Shown here: in pieces, positions 28,130 through 43,079 of the stretch
Layout of the letters: each line of letters opens with the position of its first letter
Position numbering within the stretch: position 1 is the stretch's first letter
NCBI GenBank assembly: GCA_963737655.1
Contig: CAVTTN010000002.1
Location: forward strand, 4,640,001 to 4,704,000
Direction: 5' to 3'
DNA length: 64,000 nucleotides
Source: an uncultured Planctomycetota bacterium
Lineage (GTDB): Bacteria; Planctomycetota; Planctomycetia; Isosphaerales; Isosphaeraceae
Program-made: the position numbers and the translations under genes
Notes under the pieces: generated by a model
Databases searched by the model: none
The model's input: only the letters and a program-made list of their open reading frames with translations
What the model was told of the DNA's origin: nothing

Positions 28130-28494
28130 AATCGTTGCGGTGCACCGTCGTTGCTCATCTCGACCTTGTAGCTTCCTTGCTTCATCAGTTCCGGCGCCAG
28201 CAACATGGCCAGCCGCAACTGACCCGGGCCGATCAATCGGCCCAGGTTGCGTTTCACCTCGCTGTAGGCGGCGTAGTCATGGGCGAAGTTGCGGTTGATC
28301 TCCCGAGGCCGTCGCCACGTCGAACCGAGCGGTGATCAGCCGGAGGATCCCAGGGTCCGCCTCGGCCAGCTCCATCAGGAGATCCACCAGCTCGGCTTTC
28401 TTGCAGCGCATCGGCGCCGCGCACAGCGCGGCCGTCGGACCAGGTGGCTTCCGAGAGGGGACCACTTCGCGGGGCCGGGACCGGGCCTGGGCAT
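28130..28494 (-). pseudogene. degraded hypothetical protein
   Basis: Protein-like pieces in different frames: KAELVDLLMELAEADPGILR and DYAAYSEVKRNLGRLI...ELMKQGSYKVEMS. Confidence 0.4.
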
Positions 28495-28523
28495 GGCCTC
28501 GATTCCGTGTGGTGGTGCCTTCC

Positions 28524-30200
28524 TCAATGGGGATCAATTCGTACGGTCTGGCCCGAATGGTCAACGCTCAGACCAAGGGCGTCGCGGTAGTTCCACGGCA
28601 TCCAGCGCTCAGGACTGGCCGAGATCGCCTCGGCGTGCCGCTGCAGCCGGGTCAGGTAGTCGAACGGGTTGGCCCGGTTCAACTGGCAGGTGTAGATCAG
28701 GCTCATGAACAGTTCGCCGACACGGGCGCCATTCTGCGTCTCGTAAAATAGCGCGTTCTTTCGGTGCAGGATCGCCTTCTTCAACGCCCGCTCGCATAGG
28801 TTGTTGTCCAGCGGCGCACCGGCCCGACGCAGGAACAGCGTCAGCTCCTCCCAGTGCTTGAGCATGTAAGTGATCGCGCCGCCTAGGGCCGAATTGGGCC
28901 CGGTCCGCTTCTCCTCCAGTTGCCGCGTCAGCCAGTCGCGCAGCGCATGCATCGTCGGCCCGCTCGCTTCCTGATGGAGCCGCAGACGGGCCTCGGGCGA
29001 CAGCCGACGCTCCCGCGCCACGGCGTCGTTGCGATAGACCACAGCCAGCGATTCGAGCAGGTGGCGGCACGGCTCGGGAAATCGATCATGGACGTCGACG
29101 AACCGCCGCCGGGCATGGGCCAGGCACTGCGCCAGGATCGGCTCCAGCTCGGCCGGCAGGTTGCGCGAGAGCGCGTCGCACATCTGGATCGGTGGCGGCA
29201 ACGTCTCGGCGCGGTGCTTGAGAACCTCCGCGAGGTTCTCGCCCGCGTGCCGGCGGCCGCTGAAGAACAGCGCGACCCGGCGGCCGTCGCGCAGCGCCAC
29301 CACGCCGGAGGTGTACAGGCCCCGGCGCCGATCGGCGTCACTCAGGTCTTCCGCGGCACCGTCCGGGACCTCGTGCCGGCCTCGTTCCCCCATCAGCTCG
29401 AGGATCTTGACCGTGGTGTCGTCGTTGTGCACCACCTCCCCCTGCGCCGCCTGACGGATCAACTCCGCGAACGCCGGGGCCAGGTCCACCGCGACGACCC
29501 GCACGATGTCCCACTGGGTCGAGGCCGGCAGCGGGACGCCCAGGTCCCCCTGCAGGCCATCGAGCCGGTTGAACGGCAGTCCGCTTCCGTATTTCAAGAG
29601 CCCGATCATGCTGCCGGCCGTGGCGTCGTACTTCCTGCCGCCGGCCGCTGCGGGCGCGGGTGCGGTGAAGACCCGGCCGCAGAGATGGCATCGCAGCTTT
29701 TGCAACCGGTAGACCTTGGCCGCCAGCGGCGGCGGCCCGGTGATCCGCACGAGCACGCCCGGGGCCTTGTCATAGACGATGCCCTGACCGCAGTCGGGAC
29801 ACGCTTCGCCCGCACGGAGCGACGGGTGCACAACGTCGATCTCCGTGCCACATGTGTATGAGTCGGCTCCGTTGCGTCCGTGACCCTTGGAGGCCGCGGC
29901 GTCCGATTCGTCGCCGCTCCCATCGCCGGCAGCCGATCCGGTCTCGGCGGCGGCATCGGGCGTCTTGATCTTCGGCCCCACCACGGCGTCGGTCTTCTCC
30001 GTGCGCGCCCCGAAGAACAGCTGGCGGAGCCGGCGAATCGAGGTGTTCTTGTCATCCACCAGGTCGGACACGTAGGCGTACGACGCGAAGACCGCACGGA
30101 TCAGCGCGGGGTCCTCCTCGTCGAGCGCTTGCTCGACGCGGCGCAGGACGTCCTCCAATCGGGCGCTATCCACCTCGACGAGCTCCGGCGCGTTTCGCAT
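28524..30200 (-). CDS. tnpC: IS66 transposase TnpC
   Basis: LRQLFFG..TEK, zinc ribbon CPDCG..CHLCG, HNDDT, CLAHARRRF, DNNLCERAL, WMPWNY. Confidence 0.9.
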   Translation of the reverse strand: MRNAPELVEVDSARLEDVLRRVEQALDEEDPALIRAVFASYAYVSDLVDDKNTSIRRLRQLFFGARTEKTDAVVGPKIKTPDAAAETGSAAGDGSGDESDAAASKGHGRNGADSYTCGTEIDVVHPSLRAGEACPDCGQGIVYDKAPGVLVRITGPPPLAAKVYRLQKLRCHLCGRVFTAPAPAAAGGRKYDATAGSMIGLLKYGSGLPFNRLDGLQGDLGVPLPASTQWDIVRVVAVDLAPAFAELIRQAAQGEVVHNDDTTVKILELMGERGRHEVPDGAAEDLSDADRRRGLYTSGVVALRDGRRVALFFSGRRHAGENLAEVLKHRAETLPPPIQMCDALSRNLPAELEPILAQCLAHARRRFVDVHDRFPEPCRHLLESLAVVYRNDAVARERRLSPEARLRLHQEASGPTMHALRDWLTRQLEEKRTGPNSALGGAITYMLKHWEELTLFLRRAGAPLDNNLCERALKKAILHRKNALFYETQNGARVGELFMSLIYTCQLNRANPFDYLTRLQRHAEAISASPERWMPWNYRDALGLSVDHSGQTVRIDPH

Positions 30201-30320
30201 CCCGGCGACCGGCGGAAAAGATTGACGTCGCCGACCGTCTCCCCGGGGCCGCCTCGGCATGGCATCCAGGCTCCAGTGGAGCAAGGCGGAGGCCATCTCG
30301 CAAGAGTCCAGGACGGCGGG

Positions 30321-30683
30321 TCAGGTCAAAGGACCCACCGGCCGCCAGTCGGCCGCCGCGCCGGTTCGCGTCGGGTCGCCGGCCGAGAGCAGGACCGCCA
30401 GCTGATGCGCGGCCAGGCGGTGGGCCGTGCCCTCGGCGGCCGAGGGCCACCACGGGAGGCGGCCTTGCGAGAGCCGCTTGTGGCAGAGCCAAAATCCCTG
30501 GCCGTCGTACATGAGCAGATTCAGCGCCGTCGCCCTGCGATTGCGGAAGACGAAGTCGGCACCGGCGAACGGGTCGTGCTGTAGGATCTCCTGACAGAGC
30601 CGCGCCAGGCCGTCGATCCCGCGGCGAAAATCGGCCGGCTCGACGGCGACGAGGATCTTCATCTGAGGTGTGATCTGGAGCAT
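30321..30683 (-). CDS. tnpB: IS66 accessory protein TnpB
   Basis: DFRRGIDGL, FVFRNR, YDGQGFWLCHKRL. Confidence 0.9.
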   Translation of the reverse strand: MLQITPQMKILVAVEPADFRRGIDGLARLCQEILQHDPFAGADFVFRNRRATALNLLMYDGQGFWLCHKRLSQGRLPWWPSAAEGTAHRLAAHQLAVLLSAGDPTRTGAAADWRPVGPLT

Positions 30684-31075
30684 CACCGGGCGTCCCAGAA
30701 GCTGCGCAACAGCGCCTCGACATCGGCCGCATCGTAGCCCACCAAATGCATGCGCATGGTGGCCCCGGATCCGTTGTCCAGCTCGAGCCGACACTCCTTG
30801 CCGACCAGGACCGGCGAAGGCAGCTCGACGAACGCAGGGCCGCTCGACCGCGGTCCGCTGGCATCCGGCTCGGTCCGTTCCTTCAAGCGGTAGTAATCGA
30901 GGCCGAGCGCCGCGGCGGTGCGACTGACCCCATGAACTTTCGCCAGCCGGGCGGCCATCGCCCAAAGCACTTGGGGAATCCGGCCGCCCGCCTGCCCCTG
31001 CCTCCGCCACGCCTGAAACCGGTTCCGCCCACGCTCCAGATCGGGCGGTAACTGCTCACGCTTGCTCGTGCCCAT
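30683..31075 (-). CDS. IS66 TnpA-like HTH protein
   Basis: RIPQVLWAMAA..GVSRTAAAL, PAFVEL; position upstream of tnpB. Confidence 0.75.
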   Translation of the reverse strand: MGTSKREQLPPDLERGRNRFQAWRRQGQAGGRIPQVLWAMAARLAKVHGVSRTAAALGLDYYRLKERTEPDASGPRSSGPAFVELPSPVLVGKECRLELDNGSGATMRMHLVGYDAADVEALLRSFWDAR

Positions 31076-31615
31076 CGCGGTCCTCCAAGACGAGGACCGC
31101 CACCCTAGCGGATCAGCCAGAAGAATTCATGCACGCTTGCCGGAAGGACACGGAGCCTCTGGTCCTGCTCGTCGTCGGCCTCGCCGGTCGCGTCTCGCAT
31201 CGACGACGCCATCGGTCGCGCCCCCGGAGTCGTGCCCATCGGTCGGGCTCGTCGTCGTCTCCACCGGTCGTGCGCCGCGTCGTCGGTCTCGCGGGTCGGG
31301 CTCGTCGTCGTCGCGGGTCGCGCTCCTGGTCTCGTCGTCGTGGGTCGTGCGCGTCGTCGTCCTCGCCGGCCCGTCGGCCATGCCCTTGTCGGCGCGTGTC
31401 GTCGGTGCCAAGATGGCGTGGTCGGTCCGTGGGCGCCTCCGAGATGCCGCCGCCTCCCCGTGAACTCTTCGCGCCGGCGGTTCGGCATCGGTTGATACTA
31501 TGTGGGCGTGATCATCGATCGGCCCGCATCCCCCCCGGCCCCCGCGACGACGGGGACGGCCCGATCCGGCTCGGCGGGGCTTGCGGCCGGGCGCCCCGCC
31601 TCCGACCCGTCGCCC

Positions 31616-32968
31616 TCACGACGGCGGGGATGGCGGCGACTTCGCCACCAGCTCGTAGCCCAGCGACCTCGCCTTGCGCCGCAGCGAACGCTCCTGCTTC
31701 CGCCTCACCTCCGCCTCGTACTCCGCCAGCGACCTCGACACGTACTCCTCGCCGTGCCTGAGCAGCCGGTACACCAGCCGCGACAGCTTGTGCGCCGTCG
31801 CCGTGATCGCCCCCCGGCCGCCGATCCGGCCCTTGATCCGCCGGTAGAACTGGCCCGTCGCCGTCGCCGTCCGGCCCGCCGCCTGCGCCGCCATCCGCAG
31901 CGCCTGCCCCACCCGGTCCTTGCCCCGGCGCGGCGTGCGACGCCGCTCGGTCTTGTTGCTCCGGTCGGTCCGCGGGCAGAGGCCCAGCCAGCTGGCGAAG
32001 TGCTTCTCGCTCGGGAACCGCCCCACGTCGCCGCCGAGCTCGGCCAGGATCACCGTCGCCGTCGTCGCGTCGATCCCCTCGATGGCCGTCAGGTCCACGC
32101 CGATCGCCCGGGCCAGCTTGGCCGGGGCGTCGAACCGCACGTCGTTGGCCTTGCGGCCCCTCTTGCGCGGCCTCGGGGCGACCGGCCCGCCCCCGGAGCG
32201 GTCGGGCAGGCGGTCCAGCTCCTCGGCGATCCGGGCGTCGCACTCGTCGACCTGGCGGTGGAGGTAGTGGTACAGGTCGGACGCCTGCTTCAGGGCGAAC
32301 AGGTGCTCGGGCCGCCAGGTGCCCTCCAGGGCCCGGGCGATCTCCGCCTCGTCCCGGGCGCACCGCTCGTGCCGCAGCGCGGCCAGCTTCGCCGGGTGGC
32401 GCTCGCCGGCGAGGATGGCGGCGATGATCGCCGTGCCGGTGACGCCCGTGATGCTGCTGACGACCTCGGTCAGCTTCACATTCATCTGCTCCAAAGCCTT
32501 CTGCATGTGCTGGACGTGGTGCGAGGCGTACCGCACGAGCATCTGCCGCTGCCGCCAGTAGCCGCGCAGGGCCAGGACGGCCCCGGGCGGGCGGAAGGAC
32601 GGGCGGAGCAGGCCGCAGGCGTGGAGGCGCTGGAGCCACTGGCAGTCGAGCCGGTCGGTCTTGGGCCGGGCGCCGCAGTGGCTGGCCTGGCTCGGCTCGA
32701 TGAGGAAGACCTCGAAGCCGCGCGATTCGAGCAGCTCGAACAGGGGGATCCAGTAGACGCCGGTGGACTCCAGGACCACCGAGGTGACGCCCTCGGCCCG
32801 GAACCAATCGGCCAGGGCGTGGAGGTCGGCCGAGCAGGCGCCGAAGGTGCGGACCCGTCCGGGCCCGACGCAGGCGACGTGGTTGTCGGAGTGGACGTCG
32901 ACGGCGGCGGCGTGGGGGTGGACGACCGGCAGGGACGCGTCGGGATCGGGGGGCGTGCGGCGACTCAT
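31616..32968 (-). CDS. IS110 family DEDD recombinase/transposase
   Basis: AAVDVH, VVLESTGVYW, KTDRLDC, IEGI...ILAELG..RFPSEKHFASWLGLCP...S, ATAHKL. Confidence 0.95.
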   Translation of the reverse strand: MSRRTPPDPDASLPVVHPHAAAVDVHSDNHVACVGPGRVRTFGACSADLHALADWFRAEGVTSVVLESTGVYWIPLFELLESRGFEVFLIEPSQASHCGARPKTDRLDCQWLQRLHACGLLRPSFRPPGAVLALRGYWRQRQMLVRYASHHVQHMQKALEQMNVKLTEVVSSITGVTGTAIIAAILAGERHPAKLAALRHERCARDEAEIARALEGTWRPEHLFALKQASDLYHYLHRQVDECDARIAEELDRLPDRSGGGPVAPRPRKRGRKANDVRFDAPAKLARAIGVDLTAIEGIDATTATVILAELGGDVGRFPSEKHFASWLGLCPRTDRSNKTERRRTPRRGKDRVGQALRMAAQAAGRTATATGQFYRRIKGRIGGRGAITATAHKLSRLVYRLLRHGEEYVSRSLAEYEAEVRRKQERSLRRKARSLGYELVAKSPPSPPS

Positions 32969-32999
32969 GGCGAGGGCTCCGGCGGGTGGGGGGCCAAGC

Positions 33000-33175
33000 C
33001 GTCGCGGGCCGAGAGGGGGTCCGGGGACGAGGTAGTCTCCCCGACGGGAACGTCGCGGGGCCGTGTTGACACGGCGCCGCGGGTCACCAATGATGGGGCC
33101 ACGGCCTCTCGGGCCAGGCTAACCTGCGGGCGGCGAGCACCAGGGAGATGACGGCCGGGAGGCTCGCGACGGCGT
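33000..33175 (-). ncRNA. putative IS110 bridge/seek RNA
   Basis: Non-coding region containing a target match (CTAACCTG, 33119-33126) and an element-end match (CTCCCCG, 33037-33043); conserved in two mini-elements; boundaries approximate. Confidence 0.7.
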
Positions 33176-33256
33176 GCCCCAGCGTATCGCGCCCGGTGGT
33201 CGGGGCCACCCCCGGTTCACGTCCGTCGGGGAGCGGTCGCAGGCCGCGCGGAGAGT

Positions 33257-33352
33257 TAACCTGGCGCTGCAGCGGACCCGGCCACGCGGGCGGTTCTGGG
33301 AATGCGGATGTCGCTGGGATGTGGCCGGGTCCGCTGAGCTTGGCTGTTAGGC
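33257..33352 (+). other. integron attC site 1
   Basis: TAAC-N5-GCTGCAGCGGACCCGGCCAC...GTGGCCGGGTCCGCTGAGC-N6-GTTAGGC; imperfect palindrome with extra base in L''. Confidence 0.9.
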
Positions 33353-33374
33353 GGCGTCAGCCGAGCGTGGGGGC

Positions 33375-33806
33375 ATGATGGGCATCGAGCACGTTGACGG
33401 GACCGTCCCCCATCGGACGCGGAAGATGCCCTTTGTGCGCTTCCGCCTTCGCACGCTGATCGCCGTGGTCGCCCTGCTCGCCGGGCTGCTCGCGACATGG
33501 CGAGCCGTCTCCTATCACCTCGCTTACGCTCGCAAGGTCGAATACTCCCGGGATTGGGCGAGGAGCAGCCTGCTCGCGGCGGAGTCCTACCGCAAGCGGG
33601 CTTCCGAACCGGACTGCCCGGCGAAGGATGCCGCCGAGTTGCGATGGCTGGCCAGGAAGGAGGAGCTGATCTCGCGGAGATACGCCGAGATCGCCGCTCA
33701 GCCTTGGCGCCCCTACCCGACGGCGAGTGCCCCTCTTCTGACGCGCCAGGACTGGGACCAGCTCGGAGCCTTCCCGGGCCGGCCACCCGCCCAAGCCGGG
33801 CGCTGA
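33375..33806 (+). CDS. gene cassette ORF, membrane-anchored hypothetical protein
   Basis: Fills the space between attC1 and attC2; RFRLRTLIAVVALLAGLL N-terminal anchor; start may be 33426. Confidence 0.75.
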   Translation: MMGIEHVDGTVPHRTRKMPFVRFRLRTLIAVVALLAGLLATWRAVSYHLAYARKVEYSRDWARSSLLAAESYRKRASEPDCPAKDAAELRWLARKEELISRRYAEIAAQPWRPYPTASAPLLTRQDWDQLGAFPGRPPAQAGR

Positions 33807-33964
33807 TCCGAGTCCATCAGCCTTCGGTCGAGACGCTCTCCTCTTCGTGAACTCTTTGGCTGGGAACGGCCATCGACGCGCGACACTACCCCAACCCCAG
33901 GCTTTGTGGCCGGGCAGCGGCGAGGTCCGGGTAGCAAACCGACGGATTCAAGAGCGGCGGACGA

Positions 33965-34130
33965 GGCGCGGGCCGAGAGGGGAGTCGGTTACGCTTGCAG
34001 TCTCTTCGACGGGAACATCCCCGCGAGTCGGCTCGCGGGGCGTCGCCAATGACCGGATCACGACCTCTCGGGCCAGGCTAACCTACGGGCAGGGAGCACC
34101 AAGGTGGAGACGGCCGGGAGGCCCGCGCCA
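33965..34130 (-). ncRNA. putative bridge RNA of mini-element 1
   Basis: CTAACCT (34078-34084) target match; CTCTTCG (34002-34008) own-end match; upstream TTGCCC-N17-TAGCCT. Confidence 0.65.
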
Positions 34131-34135
34131 CACTC

Positions 34136-34164
34136 AGGCTACGCCGCGCCGGGTCGGCGGGCAA
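34136..34164 (-). promoter_or_regulatory. candidate sigma70-type promoter for the mini-element RNA
   Basis: TTGCCC-17 nt-TAGCCT; identical at 34936-34964; equivalent GTGGCC-17-TACGCT at 33181-33209. Confidence 0.5.
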
Positions 34165-34221
34165 GTCGTCCCCGACCCCCGTTCACGCCCCGTCGGGAGC
34201 GGACGAAGGCCGCAGGATGGT

Positions 34222-34318
34222 TAACCTCGCGCTGCAGCGGACCCCGCACCGCCGCGGCGTCTCTCGTGGTATCATCATCTTCTCGGCGGTGCGGGTCCGC
34301 TGAGCTTTGTCGTTAGGC
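34222..34318 (+). other. integron attC site 2
   Basis: TAACCTCGCGCTGCAGCGGACCCCGCACCGCCG...CGGCGGTGCGGGTCCGCTGAGCTTTGTCGTTAGGC. Confidence 0.9.
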
Positions 34319-34335
34319 GGCGTTCATCGCGGGGG

Positions 34336-34650
34336 GTGCGCATGCCCGATCCGAGTTCGCTCCTGATCTTCAGCGAGGACGAGGCGCGGCCGCTTGAGGC
34401 ATACAATCGCTTCGTCGGGACGCTCCCCCCGGAATTGCAGCAACAGCTAAGGGCGGTGCTGATGAGCTATCTGGGCGCTTACGGCCCCGTGGAGACTCTG
34501 GAGCGATTCCGCGGCCGTACCCTCGCCCAAGTGCTGGAGGATTACCATCCGCCCAGCGAGCCGCCGGTCGTGAAGTCCGGCGAACTGGACGGGGTGCGTT
34601 ATACGCTGGACGATCGGCCCGGTTCCGGTGGCAACCCCGCCTCTTCGTGA
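34336..34650 (+). CDS. gene cassette ORF, hypothetical protein
   Basis: Starts just after attC2; its original in-frame stop is the TAA of attC3 once the mini-element is removed. Confidence 0.75.
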   Translation: MRMPDPSSLLIFSEDEARPLEAYNRFVGTLPPELQQQLRAVLMSYLGAYGPVETLERFRGRTLAQVLEDYHPPSEPPVVKSGELDGVRYTLDDRPGSGGNPASS

Positions 34651-35021
34651 ACTCTTTGGCTGGGAACGGCCATCGACGCGCGACACTACCCCAACCCCAG
34701 GCTTTGTGGCCGGGCAGCGACGAAGTCCGGGTAGCAAACCGACGGATTCAAGAGCGGCGGACGAGGCGCGGGCCGAGAGGGGAGTCGGTTACGCTTGCAG
34801 TCTCTTCGGCGGGAACATCCCCGCGAGTCGGCTCGCGGGGCGTCGCCAATGACCGGATCACGACCTCTCGGGCCAGGCTAACCTACGGGCAGGGAGCACC
34901 AAGGTGGAGACGGCCGGGAGGCCCGCGCCACACTCAGGCTACGCCGCGCCGGGTCGGCGGGCAAGTCGTCCCCGACCCCCGTTCACGCCCCGTCGGGAGC
35001 GGACGAAGGCCGCAGGATGGT
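34642..35021 (-). mobile_element. 380-bp non-autonomous IS110-derived element, copy 2
   Basis: About 3 substitutions vs copy 1; inserted at GCC^TAAC of attC3. Confidence 0.85.
34765..34930 (-). ncRNA. putative bridge RNA of mini-element 2
   Basis: Same motifs as copy 1, shifted by 800 bp. Confidence 0.65.
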
Positions 35022-35117
35022 TAACCTCGCGCTGCAGCGGACCCGGCCACGCGGGCGCGTTATGATCGTGCGGAGCATCCCGGTATGTGGCCGGTCCGCT
35101 GAGCTTATGCGTTGTAC
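35022..35117 (+). other. integron attC site 3
   Basis: TAACCTCGCGCTGCAGCGGACCCGGCCAC...GTGGCCGGTCCGCTGAGCTTATGCGTTGTAC; R' deviates from GTTRRRY. Confidence 0.85.
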
Positions 35118-35231
35118 CTCGTCGGTCGGGCCCTCGCGTGGGTCTCCGGTAAGACGCTCCGAATGGAAGGGGACGGGTGGAGTTTCGAGAGTTTTCGGCC
35201 CGTTCTCCCCGCTGCTATCAGGGCTGGATTC

Positions 35232-35516
35232 TCAAAACCGGACCCGGCCCAGGACGACGAAATCGGTCAGGGCCCGGCCCATCACGGCCCCCCGCTCGGC
35301 ACCCAGGACGGCCCTTGCGAACGGCTCGAACCCGGGCTCGCCCGCCCGGCCCCTCTGGAGCCATCGGTAGAGCGTCGAGGCCCCGACGCCGGACGCCTCC
35401 GCCGCGGCCTCGCGGGACTTCCCCTCGGAGATCGCCGCCACGATCGACAGGGCGGCCCCGGGGGTGAACTTCGAGGGCCGCCCTCCCCTATGCTGCTTCG
35501 GTTTCGCTCTCGGCAT
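35232..35516 (-). CDS. small HTH protein (terminase small subunit-like N-terminus)
   Basis: GGRPSKFTP...REAAAEASGVGASTLYRWLQRG. Confidence 0.6.
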   Translation of the reverse strand: MPRAKPKQHRGGRPSKFTPGAALSIVAAISEGKSREAAAEASGVGASTLYRWLQRGRAGEPGFEPFARAVLGAERGAVMGRALTDFVVLGRVRF

Positions 35517-35524
35517 GGCCCGGT

Positions 35525-35830
35525 TCACCTCTGCCTCGGGCCGATCTTGTCCGTCCACTTGCCCCGGTAGTCGGCCAGCCATCCGGCGATCACCGCGTCC
35601 ATCGCGTCGGCGTCGGGCCCCTTGAGCCGGGCCTGGAGGTCGTCCAGGGCCGCGGCGCCGTCGGTGCCTCGGGGGACTTCGACCACCCCGGAGCGGATCG
35701 TCAGGACCACCCCGGCCCGCTCGCACTCGGGCCTTCCTCGGGTCACGGCCAGGGCGTGGAGGAGCTGCCCGCGCCTCGCCCCCCCGGCGGCCCGCTCCAG
35801 GCGCCCGAGCCTGCCCTGGAGACTCGCCAT
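35525..35830 (-). CDS. hypothetical protein
   Basis: MASLQGRLGRLERA; RBS GGAGG; in operon with neighbours. Confidence 0.55.
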   Translation of the reverse strand: MASLQGRLGRLERAAGGARRGQLLHALAVTRGRPECERAGVVLTIRSGVVEVPRGTDGAAALDDLQARLKGPDADAMDAVIAGWLADYRGKWTDKIGPRQR

Positions 35831-35855
35831 CAAGTTGCCTCCCCAGGAACCCCGG

Positions 35856-36068
35856 TCAGTCGATGATGCCGTGCCGCCTGAACGCCGCGACCATCAGCCG
35901 GGCGGCCTCGACGTCGCTCCGGTCGAAGGCATCCGCCACGGCCAACAGCTCCTCATTGGTCAGGGCCCGGATGCCCCGGAGATACTTCCGCCGGGACAAC
36001 CTGCGGACGATGCCGACGGGGCTCCAGGAGTCCTCCAGGCGCCGGACGCGCCCCTCGGCCCGGCTCAC
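35856..36068 (-). CDS. hypothetical protein
   Basis: VSRAEGRVRRLED...LTNEELLAV; operon context. Confidence 0.45.
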   Translation of the reverse strand: MSRAEGRVRRLEDSWSPVGIVRRLSRRKYLRGIRALTNEELLAVADAFDRSDVEAARLMVAAFRRHGIID

Positions 36069-36480
36069 GACTCGTCTCCCCCTCGTGCTTCTGGTCGGCC
36101 GCGACCTGCTCCAGGAAGGCGATCCGGGCGTCCAGCTCGACGTGGGTCCGTAGCTTGACGGCGGAGTCCAGGACGGCGACAGCGGCCCGGAGCCGGATGG
36201 CCGGGGACGGGTCGGCCAGGAGCTTGTCGAGGGCGGCGGTGGCCCTGGCGGCAGAACGGGCGAGCCGACCGACGGACCGCTCGAAGATGTCGCCACGAAC
36301 CCGGGCGACATAGGAGCAGAACTCGGGCTTGTCCAGCCAATCGTAGACCGTCCGCTCGCCGGCCTTGACCGCCTTGGCCGTGGCCCGGACGGGCCTGCCC
36401 GAGGCGAGCAGCAGGGCGGCCCTCTGCTGCTTGGGGGTCCAGTCTGCGGTGGCATGCGGTGGCATGCGGAAATCTCGCAT
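35953..36480 (-). CDS. HTH protein, phage/terminase-small-subunit-like
   Basis: TPKQQRAALLLASG...AKAVKAGERTVYDWLDKPEF...IRLRAAVAVLD...ELDARIAFLE. Confidence 0.6.
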   Translation of the reverse strand: MRDFRMPPHATADWTPKQQRAALLLASGRPVRATAKAVKAGERTVYDWLDKPEFCSYVARVRGDIFERSVGRLARSAARATAALDKLLADPSPAIRLRAAVAVLDSAVKLRTHVELDARIAFLEQVAADQKHEGETSREPGRGARPAPGGLLEPRRHRPQVVPAEVSPGHPGPDQ

Positions 36481-36721
36481 CAGATCGATAACCGGCCAAC
36501 CTCTGCATGCTTGATCGTACAAGCCAGGTTGCGGTTCGTCCAATGGCGACTTGGCCGCCCACCCGCTCGCCGGTCCGATGGACGGAAGCGGTCGGAGGCC
36601 ATAGAGTGGGAAGCATCGGGTCGGTCTCGGGGGTGGCCACCCCCGGGCCTCACGGTCCCGGTCGTCGCGTCGGCCCCACTCCGCCGCGACGGGCGGGACC
36701 GGCCCGAGAGGAGTGGGGAAC

Positions 36722-38120
36722 ATGCCCGAACCCTGGCATCGGCCTCTGGCCGTGCTGCGCGACGAATTCGCCCGACGCTCGGCCGACCTCCGGCATCTGT
36801 TGGTCAGGATCGAACGGAATTCCTACATCGTGCCCCCCGAATGGTGGCAGGCCAGGCCCGGCGAGGAATATTCGCGCCGGGGCCTCCCCGACGAGGCCAT
36901 GTGGCGGATCGAACCCGGCGGGCGCGCCCCCCGTCCGGTCATCATACAACAGACCGAGGACGGTTCGTCCTTCATGTGGAAGCACACGTTCTATGGCCAT
37001 GCCCCCGAGGCTCGAGACTTCTTCATCGACCTCGCCTACCGGGCGTTCCGATGCCTCGCCTCCGCCCCCGCAGGTGAATTTGCACGGCTCGCGGAAGTCC
37101 TAAGAATGTCCATCGATCCGCCGGACCTCGACTACCATAGCCCGGATCTTTGGTGGTTGCGTGCGGTTCACGAGATTGCACGGCGGCGGCATGAAGGCTC
37201 CTCCCTCTGGTCACTCAGCGGGCCGTCCAGTCAATTCCATAGCGTGGAACAAGACCTCCAGTCCCAACGACGTGCCCGAGAGCGAGGGGAAACGGTCGGT
37301 TACGACTTCGGCTACTCGATCCTGCACGGACGTTTTCACTTGCTCGGCGGAGGCCATCGACCTCACCCTCAAGGCCGCCCCGCCCCAGCATTACCCGGCG
37401 ATCGACCGATTCGCCTTCCGGTTTCTCCTGGAGACGATCGATGGCCGTTACTTCCTGTTGGGTGCTCTGCATGATTCTTGGGAGCGCTCCGGGGAGGGAA
37501 CTGGCCCGCCCCAATTTCAGTATCGAGAGATCGCCGACGACGCCGCCCTCGCCTTGCTCGTGGAATCGGGGCTCGCCGACGACCTATCGATTCATCTCCG
37601 AGACGTCCTCGAATGGAACCTCGATCCTTCACGATTGGGTGAACGCGCTGGCTTGTCGGTTGACGCGGGACCAGTGATCCCATCGATTCCGACCGAAGGT
37701 GGAACGGTCCGTCCGCTCAATCCGACAGGGGCCCGCTCTCAGGCCGAAGCGGGCGACTCGCGGGAGGAGGGCGAAGAGCCCGGGCGGGGAGCCGATCTTC
37801 CGGGGATCAGCGCGGCGCCGGGCCTCCCGTCGCCAGATGAGGCCCCGGGCTCCAGCCTCAGGACCCGGTCGAAGCCCGATTCTTTGAACCCGGGCGTGAA
37901 AGCCGTCGCCGCCGCTTACGCATTGCAGGAAGAGGGGTTACCGGTGTCGCTCAAAGCCGCCTGTGAACGCGCAGGAGTGGATCGGAAGAACGTCCGGGAG
38001 CGATACCCGGAGCAAGTCCGCGTGATTCGAGCCCTATCCGCCCCCGATGGTGACGCACGGCGGGGGACGATCGATCGGAGGAGCGGGAATATCGACGCTG
38101 GATATGAGGACGACGAATAG
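36722..38120 (+). CDS. hypothetical protein with C-terminal HTH-like segment (frameshift near 37330)
   Basis: Two overlapping ORFs 36713-37474 and 37161-38120; ends SLKAACERAGVDRKNV. Confidence 0.5.
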
Positions 38121-38275
38121 GCCCCACCCCACGAAAACACCCCACGGAATTTTCTTGTAGCCCGGAAATCAAGGCGAATGGATGACCCTCCACCCCCCAC
38201 GGCCCCCCCACCCCGCCGGTAGGTCGTGGCCGTCGCGATTGTGACGATGGCCCCGCCCCGGGAGACCCGTGGATC

Positions 38276-38467
38276 ATGGCCAAAGCCCGTCCGCCCGATG
38301 ATTTCAACAACTCCCCGATCGCGTGGTTCGCCGAATTTCTGCATGCTTTGGATGGACGAGACGTCGAGCAAGCCGCCCGAGCGAAGGCCGAACTGACCCG
38401 CTTGGGCTGGACTTTCCGGTATCGGAAGCCCCGCCCCGAGGCCGATGGCCAGGCGGTGGCCCGATGA
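38276..38467 (+). CDS. small hypothetical protein
   Basis: SPIAWFAEF...AARAKAELTRLGW; first gene of the replication operon. Confidence 0.55.
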   Translation: MAKARPPDDFNNSPIAWFAEFLHALDGRDVEQAARAKAELTRLGWTFRYRKPRPEADGQAVAR

Positions 38468-38765
38468 CTCCCCGTCCCGGCCGCCGGACCCGACCGACCG
38501 CCAATCTGATCCAAGAGGCCAATCGACCAAAGGCGGCCGAACCGCCCCTCGGGGCGCCCCCCTCGGACCTGACATCCCTGCCCTGGGCGGTAGGCTCACG
38601 GTCCGCCTGGACGAATTACCCGCTGCCCTCGGAGTGTCGCGGCGGACCATCGAACGCGAGAGGTCCGCCGGCCGATTCCCCAAGCCCGACCTGACGATCG
38701 GGAAGATGCCGCTCTGGCAGCCCCAGACGATCCGAGATTGGATCGCGGGGGGTGGGCGTTCATGA
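38445..38765 (+). CDS. AlpA/excisionase-like HTH regulator
   Basis: LPAALGVSRRTIERERSAGRFPKPD.TIGKMPLW...TIRDW. Confidence 0.75.
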   Translation: MARRWPDDSPSRPPDPTDRQSDPRGQSTKGGRTAPRGAPLGPDIPALGGRLTVRLDELPAALGVSRRTIERERSAGRFPKPDLTIGKMPLWQPQTIRDWIAGGGRS

Positions 38766-39994
38766 TCCGCCCCTATGACGCCTGGATCCTCGCCCGCCTC
38801 GTCTGCGGCCATTCGCTCAACGGCGAACTGGAATCGGTTTCCCCGGCCCTACGGGGAATCGCCGATCATCTGGCCGGGCTTCCCGACGAAGACCGCCAGA
38901 CGGCCCTCGGGGGATTCCGTTGCTCGCCCGCGATCGACGGCCCCGCCTTGATCAAGGCGATGACCGCTCACCACCCCGATGGACCGGCCCCCGAGTCGGT
39001 CCATGAGCGATGCTATGCAACCCTCGACGACATCGCCCGGGTCGTCGCCGATCAAGCGTGGCTCTGGGGAGACTGGCTCGCCCGGGGCGTCCTGAACGTG
39101 GTGGCCTCCGAGCCGGGGACGGGCAAGACCCGATTCGGACTGGACCTGGCCCGTCGGCTCTGGTTTGGCTTGTCGTGGCCTGACAACCAATTGAATGTGA
39201 TGCCCGGGGGGACGCGGACCCTGTGGATTCAGGGCGACCGCAACTTCGCCGAGATGCTCCAAGCCGCCCGCGACTTCGGACTCCCCGGCGACGCCGTGTC
39301 CCTGGGATCGGCCCCCGACGACCCGACCGGGGCGCTCGACCTGGACGACCCGGGAACGCTGGCGGCCATCGGGGGGAGGATCCAGGCCGCCGCCCCGGCC
39401 CTCGTGGTGATCGACACGGTAGGCATGGTGACCGATCGGAACCTCTGCCGCCCCGAAGAAGCCCGCGCATTCTTCGCCCCGATCATGGAACTTGCCGCGA
39501 GGACGGGCGTGGCCTTCCTCGGTCTGACCCATTTGTCGAAGGACAAGGAGGCCCTGGGTCGGCGGATCGTCGAGAAGGCCAGGGTGGTCATCAAGATGAC
39601 GCAGCCCGATCCCGAAGGCAAGAAGGACCGCCGGAGGTTGTGGGTGGACAAGTCCGCCGTTGTGAAGCCCCCGCCCTTGGGGATCACGATGGGGGACGCG
39701 GGCAACAATTACGACTTCACTCCGCCGACGGAGCCCGAGCCGAATCGGGGGGGACGGCCGCCGGAGAAGCTCGGCAAGGCCATCAAGTTCCTGGCGGAGA
39801 AACTGACCGAGGGAGACCGCAAATGGTGCGATCTGGTCAACGAATGGGAAGCGCTCGGGGGGGCCAAGGGGACCCTCTTCAATGCCTGCAAGGCGATGGT
39901 CGACGACGGTCGGATGGTCGTTGATGAGTCCAAGAAGCCCAAGTTCTGCCACCTGGTCAAGGACTCCGAGGAAGGTCAAGAACACGGTTCCTGA
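38762..39994 (+). CDS. AAA family ATPase (RepA/AAA_25-type helicase)
   Basis: WLWGDWLARG, Walker A SEPGTGKT, Walker B LVVIDT, LTHLSK. Confidence 0.85.
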   Translation: MIRPYDAWILARLVCGHSLNGELESVSPALRGIADHLAGLPDEDRQTALGGFRCSPAIDGPALIKAMTAHHPDGPAPESVHERCYATLDDIARVVADQAWLWGDWLARGVLNVVASEPGTGKTRFGLDLARRLWFGLSWPDNQLNVMPGGTRTLWIQGDRNFAEMLQAARDFGLPGDAVSLGSAPDDPTGALDLDDPGTLAAIGGRIQAAAPALVVIDTVGMVTDRNLCRPEEARAFFAPIMELAARTGVAFLGLTHLSKDKEALGRRIVEKARVVIKMTQPDPEGKKDRRRLWVDKSAVVKPPPLGITMGDAGNNYDFTPPTEPEPNRGGRPPEKLGKAIKFLAEKLTEGDRKWCDLVNEWEALGGAKGTLFNACKAMVDDGRMVVDESKKPKFCHLVKDSEEGQEHGS

Positions 39995-40101
39995 CGGTTC
40001 TTGACCCTTGAAGAACCCTTTTCGTGAGCGTCAGGAACCCCGCCCCCCTATGGAGAACCGGGTTGTTGACCCGAACCGAGGCCCTCCGAGACCCGCGAAC
40101 G

Positions 40102-41276
40102 ATGAAACTCCCTGCCCCCGGACGACACCGGATCGACTGGCAAACCGAGCGCGAGCGGATCGACCTGGCCGCCGTCGCGACCCGCCTACTCGGCCCCGCC
40201 CCGGGACGAAGGGGGATCGTGGCCGGAAGCTGTGGTGGTCCTGCCCCCTCGGGACGCACCCCGACGCGAATCCGTCCTTCGCGGTCGAAACCGGCAGGCC
40301 TTTCTGGCGGTGTTTCGGCTGCGGCGAGTCGGGGGACGCCGCGAACCTCGTGATGAGCCTGGAGTCGTTGACGTTCCCCGAAGCCCTGGACTACCTGACC
40401 GGCGGTGCGACTTCCACAAAGCCGCGAGGCCCGAGCAAAGCCGCCCCGAGACCGGCGAACAAGGCCCTGGCCGGCCCATCCGGGATGCCCGAGGCCGACG
40501 CCCTGGCCCTCGTGGAAGCCGCCGCCGCCCGGCTGTGGACCCCCGAGGGGGCCGACGGAATGGCGTATCTGACCGGCCCCGAGCGCGGCCTGGCCCCCGA
40601 GACGATCCGGGCGGCCCGGCTGGGGTGGACGCCTCGGGCGGAAGGGGTGGCGTGGAGGCCGCCCGGCGTGGTCGTTCCGTGGTTCGTGGGCGAGCGTCTT
40701 GCACTGGTCAAGATCCGGCCCCCGGACGAGTGGAGGAAGCGATTCCCGCCTGAGAAGCGCCCTCCGAAATATCTGGAGGCGTTCCGCGATCCAGCTCGCG
40801 TCGTCTGCTACCCCGGCCTATCGACGATCCGCGCCGGCCTTCCCCTCATCGCCGTGGAGGGGGAGTTCGATTGCCTTGCCCTCGGGGAGGCTCTGGACGA
40901 AATGGCTAGCGTGGTGAGCCTGGGAAGCGCCTCGGCCGAGCCGACCCCCGACATCCTCGGCCGGTTCCTGGCCGCGAGCCCGTGGTTCATCGCCACGGAT
41001 GCCGATCCGGCGGGGGAACAGGCCGCCGCCAGGTGGCAAGCCTACCCCCGGGCTCGGCGGGTCCGCCCTCCGGCCCCTTACAAGGATTGGACCGAGGCCC
41101 GCAACGATGGCGTGAACCTCCGCCGCTGGTGGGGGGACATCTACGCCGGCAACGACCACCCTCAGCTATTCACCGATGAGGAAGCGGCCGAGTGGCGGTG
41201 GGGACCGGCCGTCGGGGACGGTTCGCCCGGGATTATCGTTCCCGCGATACGTCGGACGGAGAGCCCGGAAAAATGA
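40102..41276 (+). CDS. DNA primase: CHC2 zinc finger + TOPRIM (frameshift near 40215)
   Basis: CPLGTHPDANPSF...WRCFGCG.SGD, VEGEFDCL, ATDADPAG, KDWTE. Confidence 0.85.
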
Positions 41277-41381
41277 CCCAATTGGGTTAGTGAACTATTG
41301 TAACATAACCCGAACGGGATATAATCCGGGTGAGGTGGAGGAGGAACGGGGCGAGGATCGGACCGAGTGGGACCTACCTCG

Positions 41382-41650
41382 ATGGCCAAGGAAGAGACGA
41401 ACCCACCGACGATGACCGGGACGATCCGCGAGACGATCCTGGCCCGGTCCCTGACCGCATACCGGGTGGGTCAGGCGATCGGGACTCGTTCCCATGTCAT
41501 CCAGAGATTCCTCAACGGGGAGCGAGACCTACGGGCGCGACCCTCAACAAGCTGGCCGCCGCCCTCGGGTTGACGCTGACCCAGACGGAGGCCGGTCATC
41601 CCGACCTGAAAGGAGCAGCGGATGGCGTCGTTCCGCAAGATCGGTCGTAA
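41382..41650 (+). CDS. XRE-family HTH regulator (frameshift near 41535)
   Basis: LTAYRVGQAIG...IQRFLNGERD joined to TLNKLAAALGLTL. Confidence 0.7.
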
Positions 41651-43079
41651 TTGGTTCTTCCGGTATATCACCGCGGAGGGCATCCAGCGCGAACGAAAAG
41701 GGTGCCCCGACCGTCGGGAAACCGAGGCGATGGCGAACGCCTGCGAAGCCGAGGCGGCCCGGATTCGGTCCGGCCTCTCGGACTCGAAGGAAGAGGCCCG
41801 CCGCCGGTATGAGTCGCGACCGCTCGCCGATCACCTGGCCGAATGGCACAAGGCGATGCTCGCCCAGGCGGCGACCCCGAAGCATGCCAATCAGTGTCGA
41901 GGGCGGGTCGATTCGCTCCTGAAGCTGTCCAGGTCGGATCGCGTCTCCGACCTGACGGTCTTCAGGGTCCAGACGGCCCTCGGCATTCTCCGCGACAAGG
42001 GGGACGGCCTGGCCCTTCGGACGCTCCACCACTACGTCCGCAACGCCAAGGCGTTCTCCCGATGGCTCTGGCGGGACGGGCGGACGACGGAAGACAAGCT
42101 CGCCCATCTCCAACCCCCGGCGAACCCTGACACGGACCGCCGCCGCGAGCGTCGTGCCCTGACACCCGAGGAAGTCTCGGCCCTGCTCCGAGCCGCCGAA
42201 TCCGGCCCCGTGGTCTTCAAGATGTCCGGCGTCGATCGGGCCGCCATGTACCGGCTGGCCCTCGGGACGGGATTCCGAGCCGGCGAGTTGCAATCGCTCC
42301 GGCCCGAATCCTTCGACCTGGACTCCGACCAGCCGACCGTGACCGTCGAGGCCGGGCACTCCAAACGCCGCCGTCGCGACGTCCAGCCGATCCGGGGCGA
42401 CCTGGCCACGTCCCTCGGTCGATGGCTCTCCGGGAGGCCCGCCAAGGCCGCGCTATTCCCCGTATCGAGCTACCACACGGCCGAGATGTTCCGTGCCGAC
42501 CTGGAACGGGCAGGAATCCCCTTCCGGGACGACTCGGGGCGAGTGGCCGACTTCCACGCCCTGCGACACACCTTCGTCTCGACGCTGGCCCGGAGCTCCG
42601 CCTCGGTCAAGGTCGTCCAGACGCTCGCCCGGCACTCGACGCCCGTCCTGACCCTCGGGACCTACACGCATTTGGGATTGTGCGACCAGAGGGCCGCCCT
42701 GGAAGCCCTGCCCGCCGAGCAGCCCCCCGGCCCCGGGGCCGAGTCGGCGACCCAGGCCGCGACAGGAACGCATGGCCGTATGAACAATCATCCTTCCCTA
42801 CGCCTTCCCTACGGAGGGGACGGGACAGGGCGGATTGTGTCGGAGCCTGACGGTTCGGGCGAGGCGAGCACCCTCGAATTTACCGGATCGTCGTCGAACC
42901 ATAACCCCCTTACAAAGTCGGCAGTTGTCGCGTCGAGTCGGTCCCTGTCGGACCCTGACGGAAGCGGAGGGGGTGGGATTCGAACCCACGGACGTTTTGA
43001 GGCGTCAGCGGTTTTCAAGACCGCCCCGATCGGCCACTCCGGCACCCCTCCGATCGGTCGACTCGACTCGATTCATTGA
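41622..43079 (+). CDS. tyrosine recombinase/integrase
   Basis: GTGFRAGEL (R), HSKRRR (K), DFHALRHT (HxxR), LARHS..LT..Y; frame reads through the att/tRNA. Confidence 0.92.
   Translation: MASFRKIGRNWFFRYITAEGIQRERKGCPDRRETEAMANACEAEAARIRSGLSDSKEEARRRYESRPLADHLAEWHKAMLAQAATPKHANQCRGRVDSLLKLSRSDRVSDLTVFRVQTALGILRDKGDGLALRTLHHYVRNAKAFSRWLWRDGRTTEDKLAHLQPPANPDTDRRRERRALTPEEVSALLRAAESGPVVFKMSGVDRAAMYRLALGTGFRAGELQSLRPESFDLDSDQPTVTVEAGHSKRRRRDVQPIRGDLATSLGRWLSGRPAKAALFPVSSYHTAEMFRADLERAGIPFRDDSGRVADFHALRHTFVSTLARSSASVKVVQTLARHSTPVLTLGTYTHLGLCDQRAALEALPAEQPPGPGAESATQAATGTHGRMNNHPSLRLPYGGDGTGRIVSEPDGSGEASTLEFTGSSSNHNPLTKSAVVASSRSLSDPDGSGGGGIRTHGRFEASAVFKTAPIGHSGTPPIGRLDSIH
42965..43051 (-). tRNA. tRNA-Ser(TGA)
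   Basis: GGAGGGGTGCCGGAGTGG...GCGGTCTTGAAAACCGC...long variable arm...GGGTTCGAATCCCACCCCCTCCG; CCA not encoded. Confidence 0.95.

What the first reader, a model, noticed from the sequence alone, without database searches (positions are those of the whole stretch)
33037..34808. Guide motifs co-vary with each element's own end while the target guide stays fixed
Seen: at the same position in the non-coding region (AGT-[7 nt]-RCGGGAAC) the full IS has CTCCCCG (33037-33043), identical to its end junction (31454-31460). The minis have CTCTTCG (34002-34008, 34802-34808), identical to theirs (33841-33847, 34641-34647). A second motif, CTAACCT (33119, 34078, 34878), equals the reconstructed attC target CTAACCT. 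Both end in AG on the RNA strand. Inference: these are donor and target guides with natural compensatory change, so the minis are independently programmed rather than simple deletions of this IS. The opposite-strand guides are not clearly identifiable (CCACCT vs expected CCGCCT is tentative).
Basis: partly seen in the sequence, partly recalled or inferred. Interest (0 to 1): 0.88.

Follow-up and report, generated by a model that had tools for sequence, protein, structure and literature searches.

The report
RNA-guided mini-transposons with own guides
A jumping gene and its gene-less miniature hitch-hikers each carry a guide RNA that spells out their own end and a shared landing site in integron cassettes, and the guide's wiring suggests that this family pastes itself in as a folded single DNA strand.

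Summary
The motifs are the 3' guides of the donor and target loops of an IS110-family bridge RNA (about 180 nt, minus strand). Across homologs the donor guide equals the element's right end (38/40; 36/38 in a second set). The target guide equals the insertion flank (27/38; 17/25). The genome holds 8 IS copies and 28 minis, all in attC R'' boxes reading CTAACCT; 0 of 29 mismatched attC sites are occupied. The minis form their own clade (99/98), shared with other genomes, so they are not deletions of this IS. They presumably borrow its transposase. The missing opposite-strand donor guide does not match the end beside the core. It matches, in the same sense, a segment about 25-30 nt inside the left end, beyond a palindrome centred between the subterminal repeats (138/222 vs 72 expected; replicated in two further sets). 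The simplest reading is that the circle junction folds as one strand and both guides read that hairpin; this is inferred, not shown. ISPpu9/MITEPpu9 has the same end layout, and IS1111-attC elements target attC, so the kind is known. I found no report of the self-matched mini guide or the displaced guide.

The parts
31454..33257 (-). Full IS110-family element, 1804 bp, inserted in the R'' box of an attC site (CT at one junction, TT at the other)
   Evidence: 6 full and 2 partial copies in the genome with identical junctions
31616..32968 (-). DEDD/Ser recombinase, 450 aa (D24, E67, D105, D108, S337)
   Evidence: Pfam PF01548 + PF02371; NCBIfam NF033542, 251 bits; alignment to IS621
31454..31460 (+). 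IS right end (core + 5 nt) read by the IS 3' donor guide
31461..31465 (+). Right-end subterminal inverted repeat (5 bp)
   Evidence: covaries with the left-end repeat in 35 of 40
32995..33174 (-). Predicted bridge RNA of the IS, about 180 nt, closed by a terminal stem; ends inferred
33037..33043 (-). 3' donor guide of the IS (CGGGGAG)
33092..33098 (-). 5' donor guide of the IS (CCCCATC); matches left-end segment M, not the end beside the core
33117..33118 (-). Handshake dinucleotide after the target guide
   Evidence: equals the first two left-end bases in 39 of 65 elements vs 14.2 permuted; only 1 of 2 in this copy
33119..33125 (-). 3' target guide (AGGTTAG), complementary to attC CTAACCT
33145..33151 (-). 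5' target guide position (TCATCTC); poor fit to the attC flank here
   Evidence: family-wide signal
33181..33186 (-). Candidate -10 element (TACGCT)
   Evidence: TANNNT at this distance in 72 of 89 homologs vs 4 and 0 in control windows
33215..33219 (-). Left-end subterminal inverted repeat, about 37 nt inside the end
33225..33231 (-). Segment M (CCCCGAC), matched by the 5' donor guide
33233..33247 (.). Left-end palindrome; C-GNA-G loop on the + strand
33258..33352 (+). attC site 1 (remainder after insertion; R' box 33346-33352)
   Evidence: integron integrase elsewhere in the genome
33375..33806 (+). Cassette ORF, 143 aa, no family hit
33841..34222 (-). Mini 1, 382 bp, no recombinase gene
   Evidence: 28 copies in the genome at 87-100% identity
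33841..33847 (+). Mini 1 right end read by its own 3' donor guide
33960..34129 (-). Predicted bridge RNA of mini 1 (3' donor guide 34002-34008, 5' donor guide 34051-34057, 3' target guide 34078-34084, 5' target guide 34104-34110; -10 candidate 34136-34141)
34181..34213 (-). Mini 1 left-end repeat (34181-34185), segment M (34192-34198) and palindrome (34199-34213)
34223..34318 (+). attC site 2
34336..34650 (+). Cassette ORF, 104 aa; its stop codon now lies inside mini 2
34641..35022 (-). Mini 2, 99.2% identical to mini 1 (guides at 34802-34808, 34851-34857, 34878-34884, 34904-34910)
35023..35118 (+). attC site 3, degenerate R' box

Best explanation
An IS110-family bridge recombinase system of the ISPpu9-like subgroup, with a parasitic mini-element lineage. 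SHOWN by sequence comparison: each element carries a two-loop RNA whose 3' target guide reads the attC R'' box and whose 3' donor guide and handshake bases read that element's own ends. The minis are an old separate lineage with a changed right end and a compensated guide. The 5' donor guide covaries with segment M inside the left end. INFERRED: the RNA is made from a promoter in the left end and loads the IS-encoded recombinase. Mini RNA steers the borrowed enzyme to mini ends; the IS guide could still read mini ends through G-T wobble, whereas the mini guide meets IS ends with A-C mismatches, which would favour minis. One strand (window +) is cut 3' of the core dinucleotide and exchanged. 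In the circle this strand folds at the left-end palindrome and the subterminal repeats, leaving a bubble in which both donor guides pair with the same strand; replication completes the insertion. Confidence is about 0.9 for the guide and parasite part and about 0.55 for the folded-donor step.
For: Donor guide = end: 38/40 and 36/38. Target guide = flank: 27/38 with 28 distinct guides, and 17/25. Handshake = left-end start: 39/65 vs 14.2. All 36 insertions have CT at one junction and TT-AACCT at the other. Occupied attC 35/35 CTAACCT; empty 17 matched, 29 mismatched, p 3.5e-10. Mini clade 99/98, AU p 1e-86. 5' donor guide vs M: 138/222 vs 71.5+-6.4, 92/150 vs 62.0+-5.3, 28/42 vs 18.7; 151 vs 121.5+-5.2 within groups sharing a 3' guide, and 68/108 vs 37.7 among proteins under 70% identical. 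No pairing with the end beside the core. Mismatches favour wobble with the + strand, 23:6 and 18:2. Palindrome centred between the repeats in 51/61 vs 8% in shuffles; C-GNA-G loops on the + strand 16 vs 3; stem G-T on the + strand 9 vs 1. Single-strand excision and top-strand ssDNA integration are reported for other IS110s (10.64898/2026.08.31.748434; 10.1101/2025.10.25.684509).
Against: No expression or activity data were obtained. Anchoring M on the mirror image of the core (227/420) did not beat anchoring on the repeat (251/420; 13 wins, 16 losses), so that test does not single out folding. At the first base inside the repeats, G-T favours the other strand 17:0. Fold energies barely differ by strand (21 of 36), and the minimum-energy folds of this window's junctions do not give a clean bubble. 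Mutating the ISPpu9 A-box palindrome did not stop circle formation (PMC12288879 section 17). The two donor guides show offset RNA-RNA complementarity (z 6.1), and the consensus fold pairs part of the 3' donor guide in a non-covarying 4-bp stem. The 5' target guide fits the attC flank poorly (0/5 for the IS in the family register). Only 4 representatives remain below 55% identity, where the M signal is not significant (p 0.16).
Confidence: 0.72

Rival explanations
1. The guides and parasite status are as described, but the donor is ordinary double-stranded DNA. Segment M plus the left repeat is a separate inverted half-site bound by the donor loop, for example to position the complex or repress the nearby promoter, and recombination needs only the 3' donor guide (half-match).
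For: M is tied to the repeat at 6-7 nt in 56 of 60 elements, at least as tightly as to the mirror position. M lies just upstream of the candidate promoter. Half-match reactions are reported for IS621. The ISPpu9 palindrome mutant still circularises.
Against: It does not explain the conserved palindrome, its centring in 51/61 junctions, or the strand bias of loops and wobbles.
Confidence: 0.25
2. The minis are passive cargo moved by the IS RNA; their own RNA is a relic, or a regulatory sponge as proposed for Ssr9.
For: Ssr9 was dispensable for ISPpu9 transposition and was proposed as an RNA sponge (PMC12288879, PMC8450116). The IS guide could read mini ends by G-T wobble (inference).
Against: The mini guide tracks the mini end in two states (CGAAG in this genome and G003, TGAAG in L001). 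Scaffold, target guide, handshake bases and -10 candidate are intact.
Confidence: 0.1
3. The minis are simple internal deletions of this IS, and the matches reflect chance or local duplication.
For: Deletion-type minis that keep the parent guide exist in other lineages of the family (L205, L222).
Against: The tree and AU test reject it; RNA-region identity is 68% and right-end identity 51%; covariation holds over 14 distinct donor guides.
Confidence: 0.02

Closest known systems
IS621 bridge RNA system (IS110 group; PMC11208160, PMC13626964)
   Same: DEDD/Ser recombinase; RNA in the upstream non-coding end; two loops; core dinucleotide; handshake bases after the 3' guide; natural guide-end and guide-target covariation.
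   Different: 450-aa protein, only distantly related (E 7e-11). Guide order is reversed relative to the gene strand (core AG/AA on that strand). The 5-bp repeats are placed asymmetrically (7 and about 37-41 nt from the ends). The 5' donor guide matches a displaced same-strand segment rather than the end beside the core.
ISPpu9 and MITEPpu9/ssr9 of Pseudomonas putida (PMC12288879, PMC8450116)
   Same: AG core; 43-bp left box with palindrome and 16-bp right box ending in a matching repeat; a transposase-less element with a ~180-nt sense RNA; mini end differs from the IS end in the last 5 nt; tandem IS+mini arrangements (also seen in L001).
   Different: Targets REP, not attC. The sections read do not identify Ssr9 guides or guide-end covariation and leave the palindrome's role open. 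A published ssr9 primer suggests its donor guide matches the IS end rather than the mini end (weak, primer only). The ISPpu9 protein and RNA were not available for direct comparison.
IS1111-attC group (ISKpn4, ISPst6, ISPa25; passages of PMC11187229)
   Same: RNA-guided insertion at a fixed position in one end of attC sites; top-strand match precedes bottom-strand match in the RNA.
   Different: Those have the non-coding region downstream of the gene and 330-350-aa proteins; here it is upstream and the protein is 450 aa, so attC targeting looks independently acquired.
Integron attC recombination (PMC3458562, abstract opening only) and CazIS110-1/IS621 single-strand routes (two preprints)
   Same: One-strand exchange with replicative completion; a folded single strand as substrate (integron); ssDNA circles that can integrate (CazIS110-1).
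   Different: In the passages read, the IS110 preprints describe no self-folding donor read by both guides. The integron reaction is protein-directed, not RNA-guided.

Membership tests
IS110-family bridge recombinase | DEDD RuvC-like domain plus C-terminal domain with catalytic serine | tested here: met
   motif reads S-N rather than S-G
IS110-family bridge recombinase | Structured RNA in a non-coding end with target and donor loops | tested here: met
   42-pair consensus, 19 pairs with two-sided changes; target loop open; donor loop only partly resolved
IS110-family bridge recombinase | Guides covary with target and donor | tested here: met
IS110-family bridge recombinase | The two donor guides pair with opposite strands on either side of the core | tested here: not met
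   5' donor guide shows no signal with the end beside the core and matches a displaced same-strand segment
IS110-family bridge recombinase | RNA expressed, bound and required; circular intermediate formed | not testable with these tools
   no sequencing run was listed
IS110 group (vs IS1111 group) | Long non-coding region upstream of the gene; protein in the 395-455 aa class | tested here: met
   289 nt upstream vs 162 nt downstream; 450 aa (ranges)
IS1111-attC group | Non-coding region downstream; 330-350 aa transposase | tested here: not met
IS1111-attC group | Inserts at one fixed position in attC | tested here: met
   36 of 36 junctions; occupancy
ISPpu9-like subgroup | AG core, ~43-bp left box with palindrome, ~16-bp right box | tested here: met
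   against the published boxes; here the core is AA at the left end and AG at the right
ISPpu9-like subgroup | Transposase similarity to ISPpu9 | not tested
   no tool returned the ISPpu9 protein
MITE (non-autonomous IS derivative) | Short, multicopy, no transposase, ends shared with an autonomous partner | tested here: met
   28 copies of 382 bp sharing the repeats and scaffold
MITE (non-autonomous IS derivative) | Mobilised in trans by the partner's transposase | not testable with these tools
   inferred from shared repeats and co-occurrence; shown only for MITEPpu9 circles

The most novel reading that the evidence does not exclude
A widespread IS110 subgroup (homologs in Planctomycetota, Proteobacteria, Cyanobacteria and others, probably including ISPpu9) uses a self-folding single-stranded circle junction as its donor, both donor guides reading one strand. 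It is parasitised by RNA-only minis that reprogramme the donor guide so that borrowed recombinase serves their own ends. This would be an RNA-guided integrase wired for ssDNA donors.
Probability: 0.5. Interest if true: 0.9.

Novelty: new variant of a known kind. Interest (0 to 1): 0.77.

Why it matters
It bears on an open question: whether IS110 circles move as single or double strands. This subgroup gives a sequence-encoded, directly testable prediction. It offers an explanation for the unexplained 43-bp palindromic left box of ISPpu9. It supplies a natural orthogonal pair (one enzyme, two donor specificities, one target) and shows how a gene-less element can hijack an RNA-guided enzyme by changing two guide bases. 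A recombinase that takes folded ssDNA donors would interest genome engineers. In this genome 35 of 81 scored attC sites are occupied, which may affect cassette shuffling.

Tried and rejected
Rfam gave only a tRNA. Folding the whole non-coding region put the donor guide in a stem with a 5' segment; that segment lies upstream of the conserved -10 candidate, so the pairing is probably an artefact of including untranscribed DNA. Single-sequence folds were not better than shuffles (z -1.6 and -0.5) and did not place the guides cleanly in loops. Canonical pairing of the 5' donor guide with the end beside the core was rejected. The mirror-anchor test was inconclusive. The donor-side handshake signal was weak (3 of 79 for both bases). 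The viral collection gave no relative. No sequencing run was listed, so no RNA holder could be examined. G023 hits were unrelated coding sequence. Possible extra elements at C2:819745 and 4298600 showed no RNA scaffold. Earlier-findings look-ups by place and by sequence were blank. No protein fold or complex was predicted.

Full report
Observation. Every motif is at the stated coordinates, in aligned positions of the three elements. Short matches alone are common in this window, so the case rests on homologs and on the rest of the genome.

What the locus is. 31616-32968 (minus strand) encodes a 450-aa IS110-family recombinase with the DEDD residues and the serine that aligns with the catalytic serine region of IS621. 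The genome holds 6 full and 2 partial IS copies and 28 minis of 382 bp. All 36 read flank-CT at one junction and TT-AACCT at the other. Two pairs of minis share a left flank, so some copies may have been duplicated with their cassette. The flanks are attC sites: empty sites read GCCT-AAC with a GTTAGGC partner about 92 nt on, and an integron integrase over the TIGR02249 cut-off lies beside one array. The window's array has no such gene.

The RNA. On the gene strand the left end holds two loops of parallel design. A 41-sequence alignment gives 42 consensus pairs, 19 with two-sided changes; both target-loop guides and the 5' donor guide are unpaired, while part of the 3' donor guide falls in a 4-bp stem without covariation that the minis break. 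A TANNNT element lies 24-36 nt upstream of the first loop in 72 of 89 elements, against 4 and 0 in control windows, giving RNAs of about 180 nt (IS) and 170 nt (mini). Expression is untested.

Covariation. First set: 66 of 79 genome loci parsed, plus 8 own or related elements, collapsed to 48 guide sets. The 3' donor guide equals the right end in 38 of the 40 with an end candidate (permuted 5.1); both misses are G-for-A. A nine-copy group missed by that anchor also matches. The 3' target guide equals the flank 6/6 in 27 of 38 (permuted 1.7; 28 distinct guides), and the subterminal repeats covary in 35 of 40. Second set: 52 of 80 metagenome loci parsed, 46 new guide sets; 36 of 38 and 17 of 25. 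The 5' target guide pairs with the other flank family-wide (91/190 vs 48.6; 54/165 vs 36.6) but poorly in this genome. The handshake bases equal the first two left-end bases in 39 of 65. Anchors were set after viewing the first set, and relatives are not independent.

Target test in the genome. Of attC hits with E at most 1e-5, 35 are occupied (one of 36 was not recovered) and all rebuild to CTAACCT. Of 48 empty hits, 2 with a TT core were dropped; 17 match and 29 do not (p 3.5e-10). Thirteen of the mismatched sites share one variant and several are near-copies, and the profile was built from occupied sites. None of 37 CTAACCT sites outside attC and guides is occupied, so more than the 7-mer is read.

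Origin of the minis. In a tree of 31 left-end regions, minis from this genome, G003 and L001 form one side of a 99/98 branch; grouping this genome's minis with its IS is rejected (AU p 1e-86). L001 carries an IS of this clade followed directly by a mini whose guide and end both read TGAAGAG. Deletion-type minis that keep the parent guide occur in other lineages. The RNA model hit 21 of 121 family genomes.

The displaced guide. The 5' donor guide shows no pairing with the end beside the core. A scan found instead same-sense identity with segment M, 12 to 6 nt before the left repeat (z 10.3; 138/222 vs 71.5). This replicated at the fixed register in the second set (92/150 vs 62.0) and in plasmid homologs (9 of 10 parsed, 6 distinct guides, 28/42 vs 18.7 using the better of two registers). 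It holds within groups sharing a 3' guide and among proteins under 70% and under 60% identity, but not among the 4 left under 55%. Mismatches favour wobble with the + strand (23:6 and 18:2). Between core and M lies a palindrome centred between the two repeats of the modelled circle junction in 51 of 61 cases (8% in shuffles), with C-GNA-G loops on the + strand in 16 stems against 3 (the stability of such DNA loops is recalled, from no call). If the + strand folds, M's complement lies opposite the end and both guides pair as in IS621. The + strand is also the one read by the 3' guides, whose IS621 counterparts hold the strand cut first (PMC13626964). The invariant CT/TT junctions fit single-strand transfer. 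Against: the mirror test did not beat the repeat anchor, one wobble position favours the other strand, the two donor guides show offset complementarity to each other, and an ISPpu9 palindrome mutant still forms circles.

Comparison with print. Seen: PMC11208160, passages. PMC11187229, section 6 and passages. PMC12288879, abstract, sections 4, 13, 17, 18, passages and supplement parts 1-2 of 3. PMC8450116, passages and a supplement search. PMC13626964, abstract and sections 4 and 11. 10.64898/2026.08.31.748434, abstract and sections 3, 6, 9. 10.1101/2025.10.25.684509, part 1 of 5 and passages. 10.64898/2026.08.14.744561, passages. PMC3458562, abstract opening in a listing. Tetu and Holmes 2008 and Post and Hall 2009 only as cited references. 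Nine searches turned up no report of a mini with a compensated donor guide or of a displaced donor guide. The library lacks most subscription papers; figures (such as Extended Data Fig. 10 of PMC11208160) and preprint supplements could not be seen and may bear on this.

Verdict. The system works like an IS621 bridge recombinase and is a member of the IS110 family by protein and RNA, but it fails the canonical donor-pairing feature. MITEPpu9 and the IS1111-attC group are precedents for its two most visible traits. The surprise lies in the self-matched parasite guide and the displaced fourth guide. Interest 0.77; new variant of a known kind.

Noticed in passing
window 34336-34650: Insertion removes the TAA of the attC R'' box that ended the cassette ORF, but the element's right-end repeat supplies an in-frame TGA two codons later; the IS end would do the same.
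   Followed up: no
L230:1890-2200, L186:1950-2250, L011:3970-4320, L001:1816-2213: Elements sit directly after another element's right end. In L230 and L186 the downstream element's target guide matches the upstream element's end at 6 of 7 positions, so some members appear to target sister elements.
   Followed up: partly
L076; L193, L197, L202, L205, L222; L146, L152: Other lineages carry GGTTAG- or TGTTAG-type target guides; L076's junction looks like the attC R' box on the other strand. This suggests repeated acquisition of attC targeting.
   Followed up: partly
G000:C2:290834, 291157, 292905, 293672, 1118571, 1119605, 5893735: Solo right-end remnants, some with other 5-nt ends (CGAGG, CGGAG), without RNA or left end; possibly older lineages.
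   Followed up: partly
G000:C2:4847285-4848403: A second IS110-family gene, 34% identical, near an attC array, with a target-loop-like motif upstream.
   Followed up: no
window 28277-31100: IS66-family element (Pfam DDE_Tnp_IS66) next to the cassette array, followed by a low-complexity GTC-rich stretch.
   Followed up: no
window 35200-43079: Phage- or ICE-like block with AAA, primase and tyrosine recombinase genes overlapping a tRNA-Ser(tga) at 42964-43051.
   Followed up: no
L095:1440-2000: In G002 a recombinase gene fragment is fused to a mini-type right end, like the ssr9-'tnp hybrid of P. putida.
   Followed up: no
plasmid collection: Homologs at 43-50% identity occur on many Citrobacter, Enterobacter, Bradyrhizobium and other plasmids.
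   Followed up: partly
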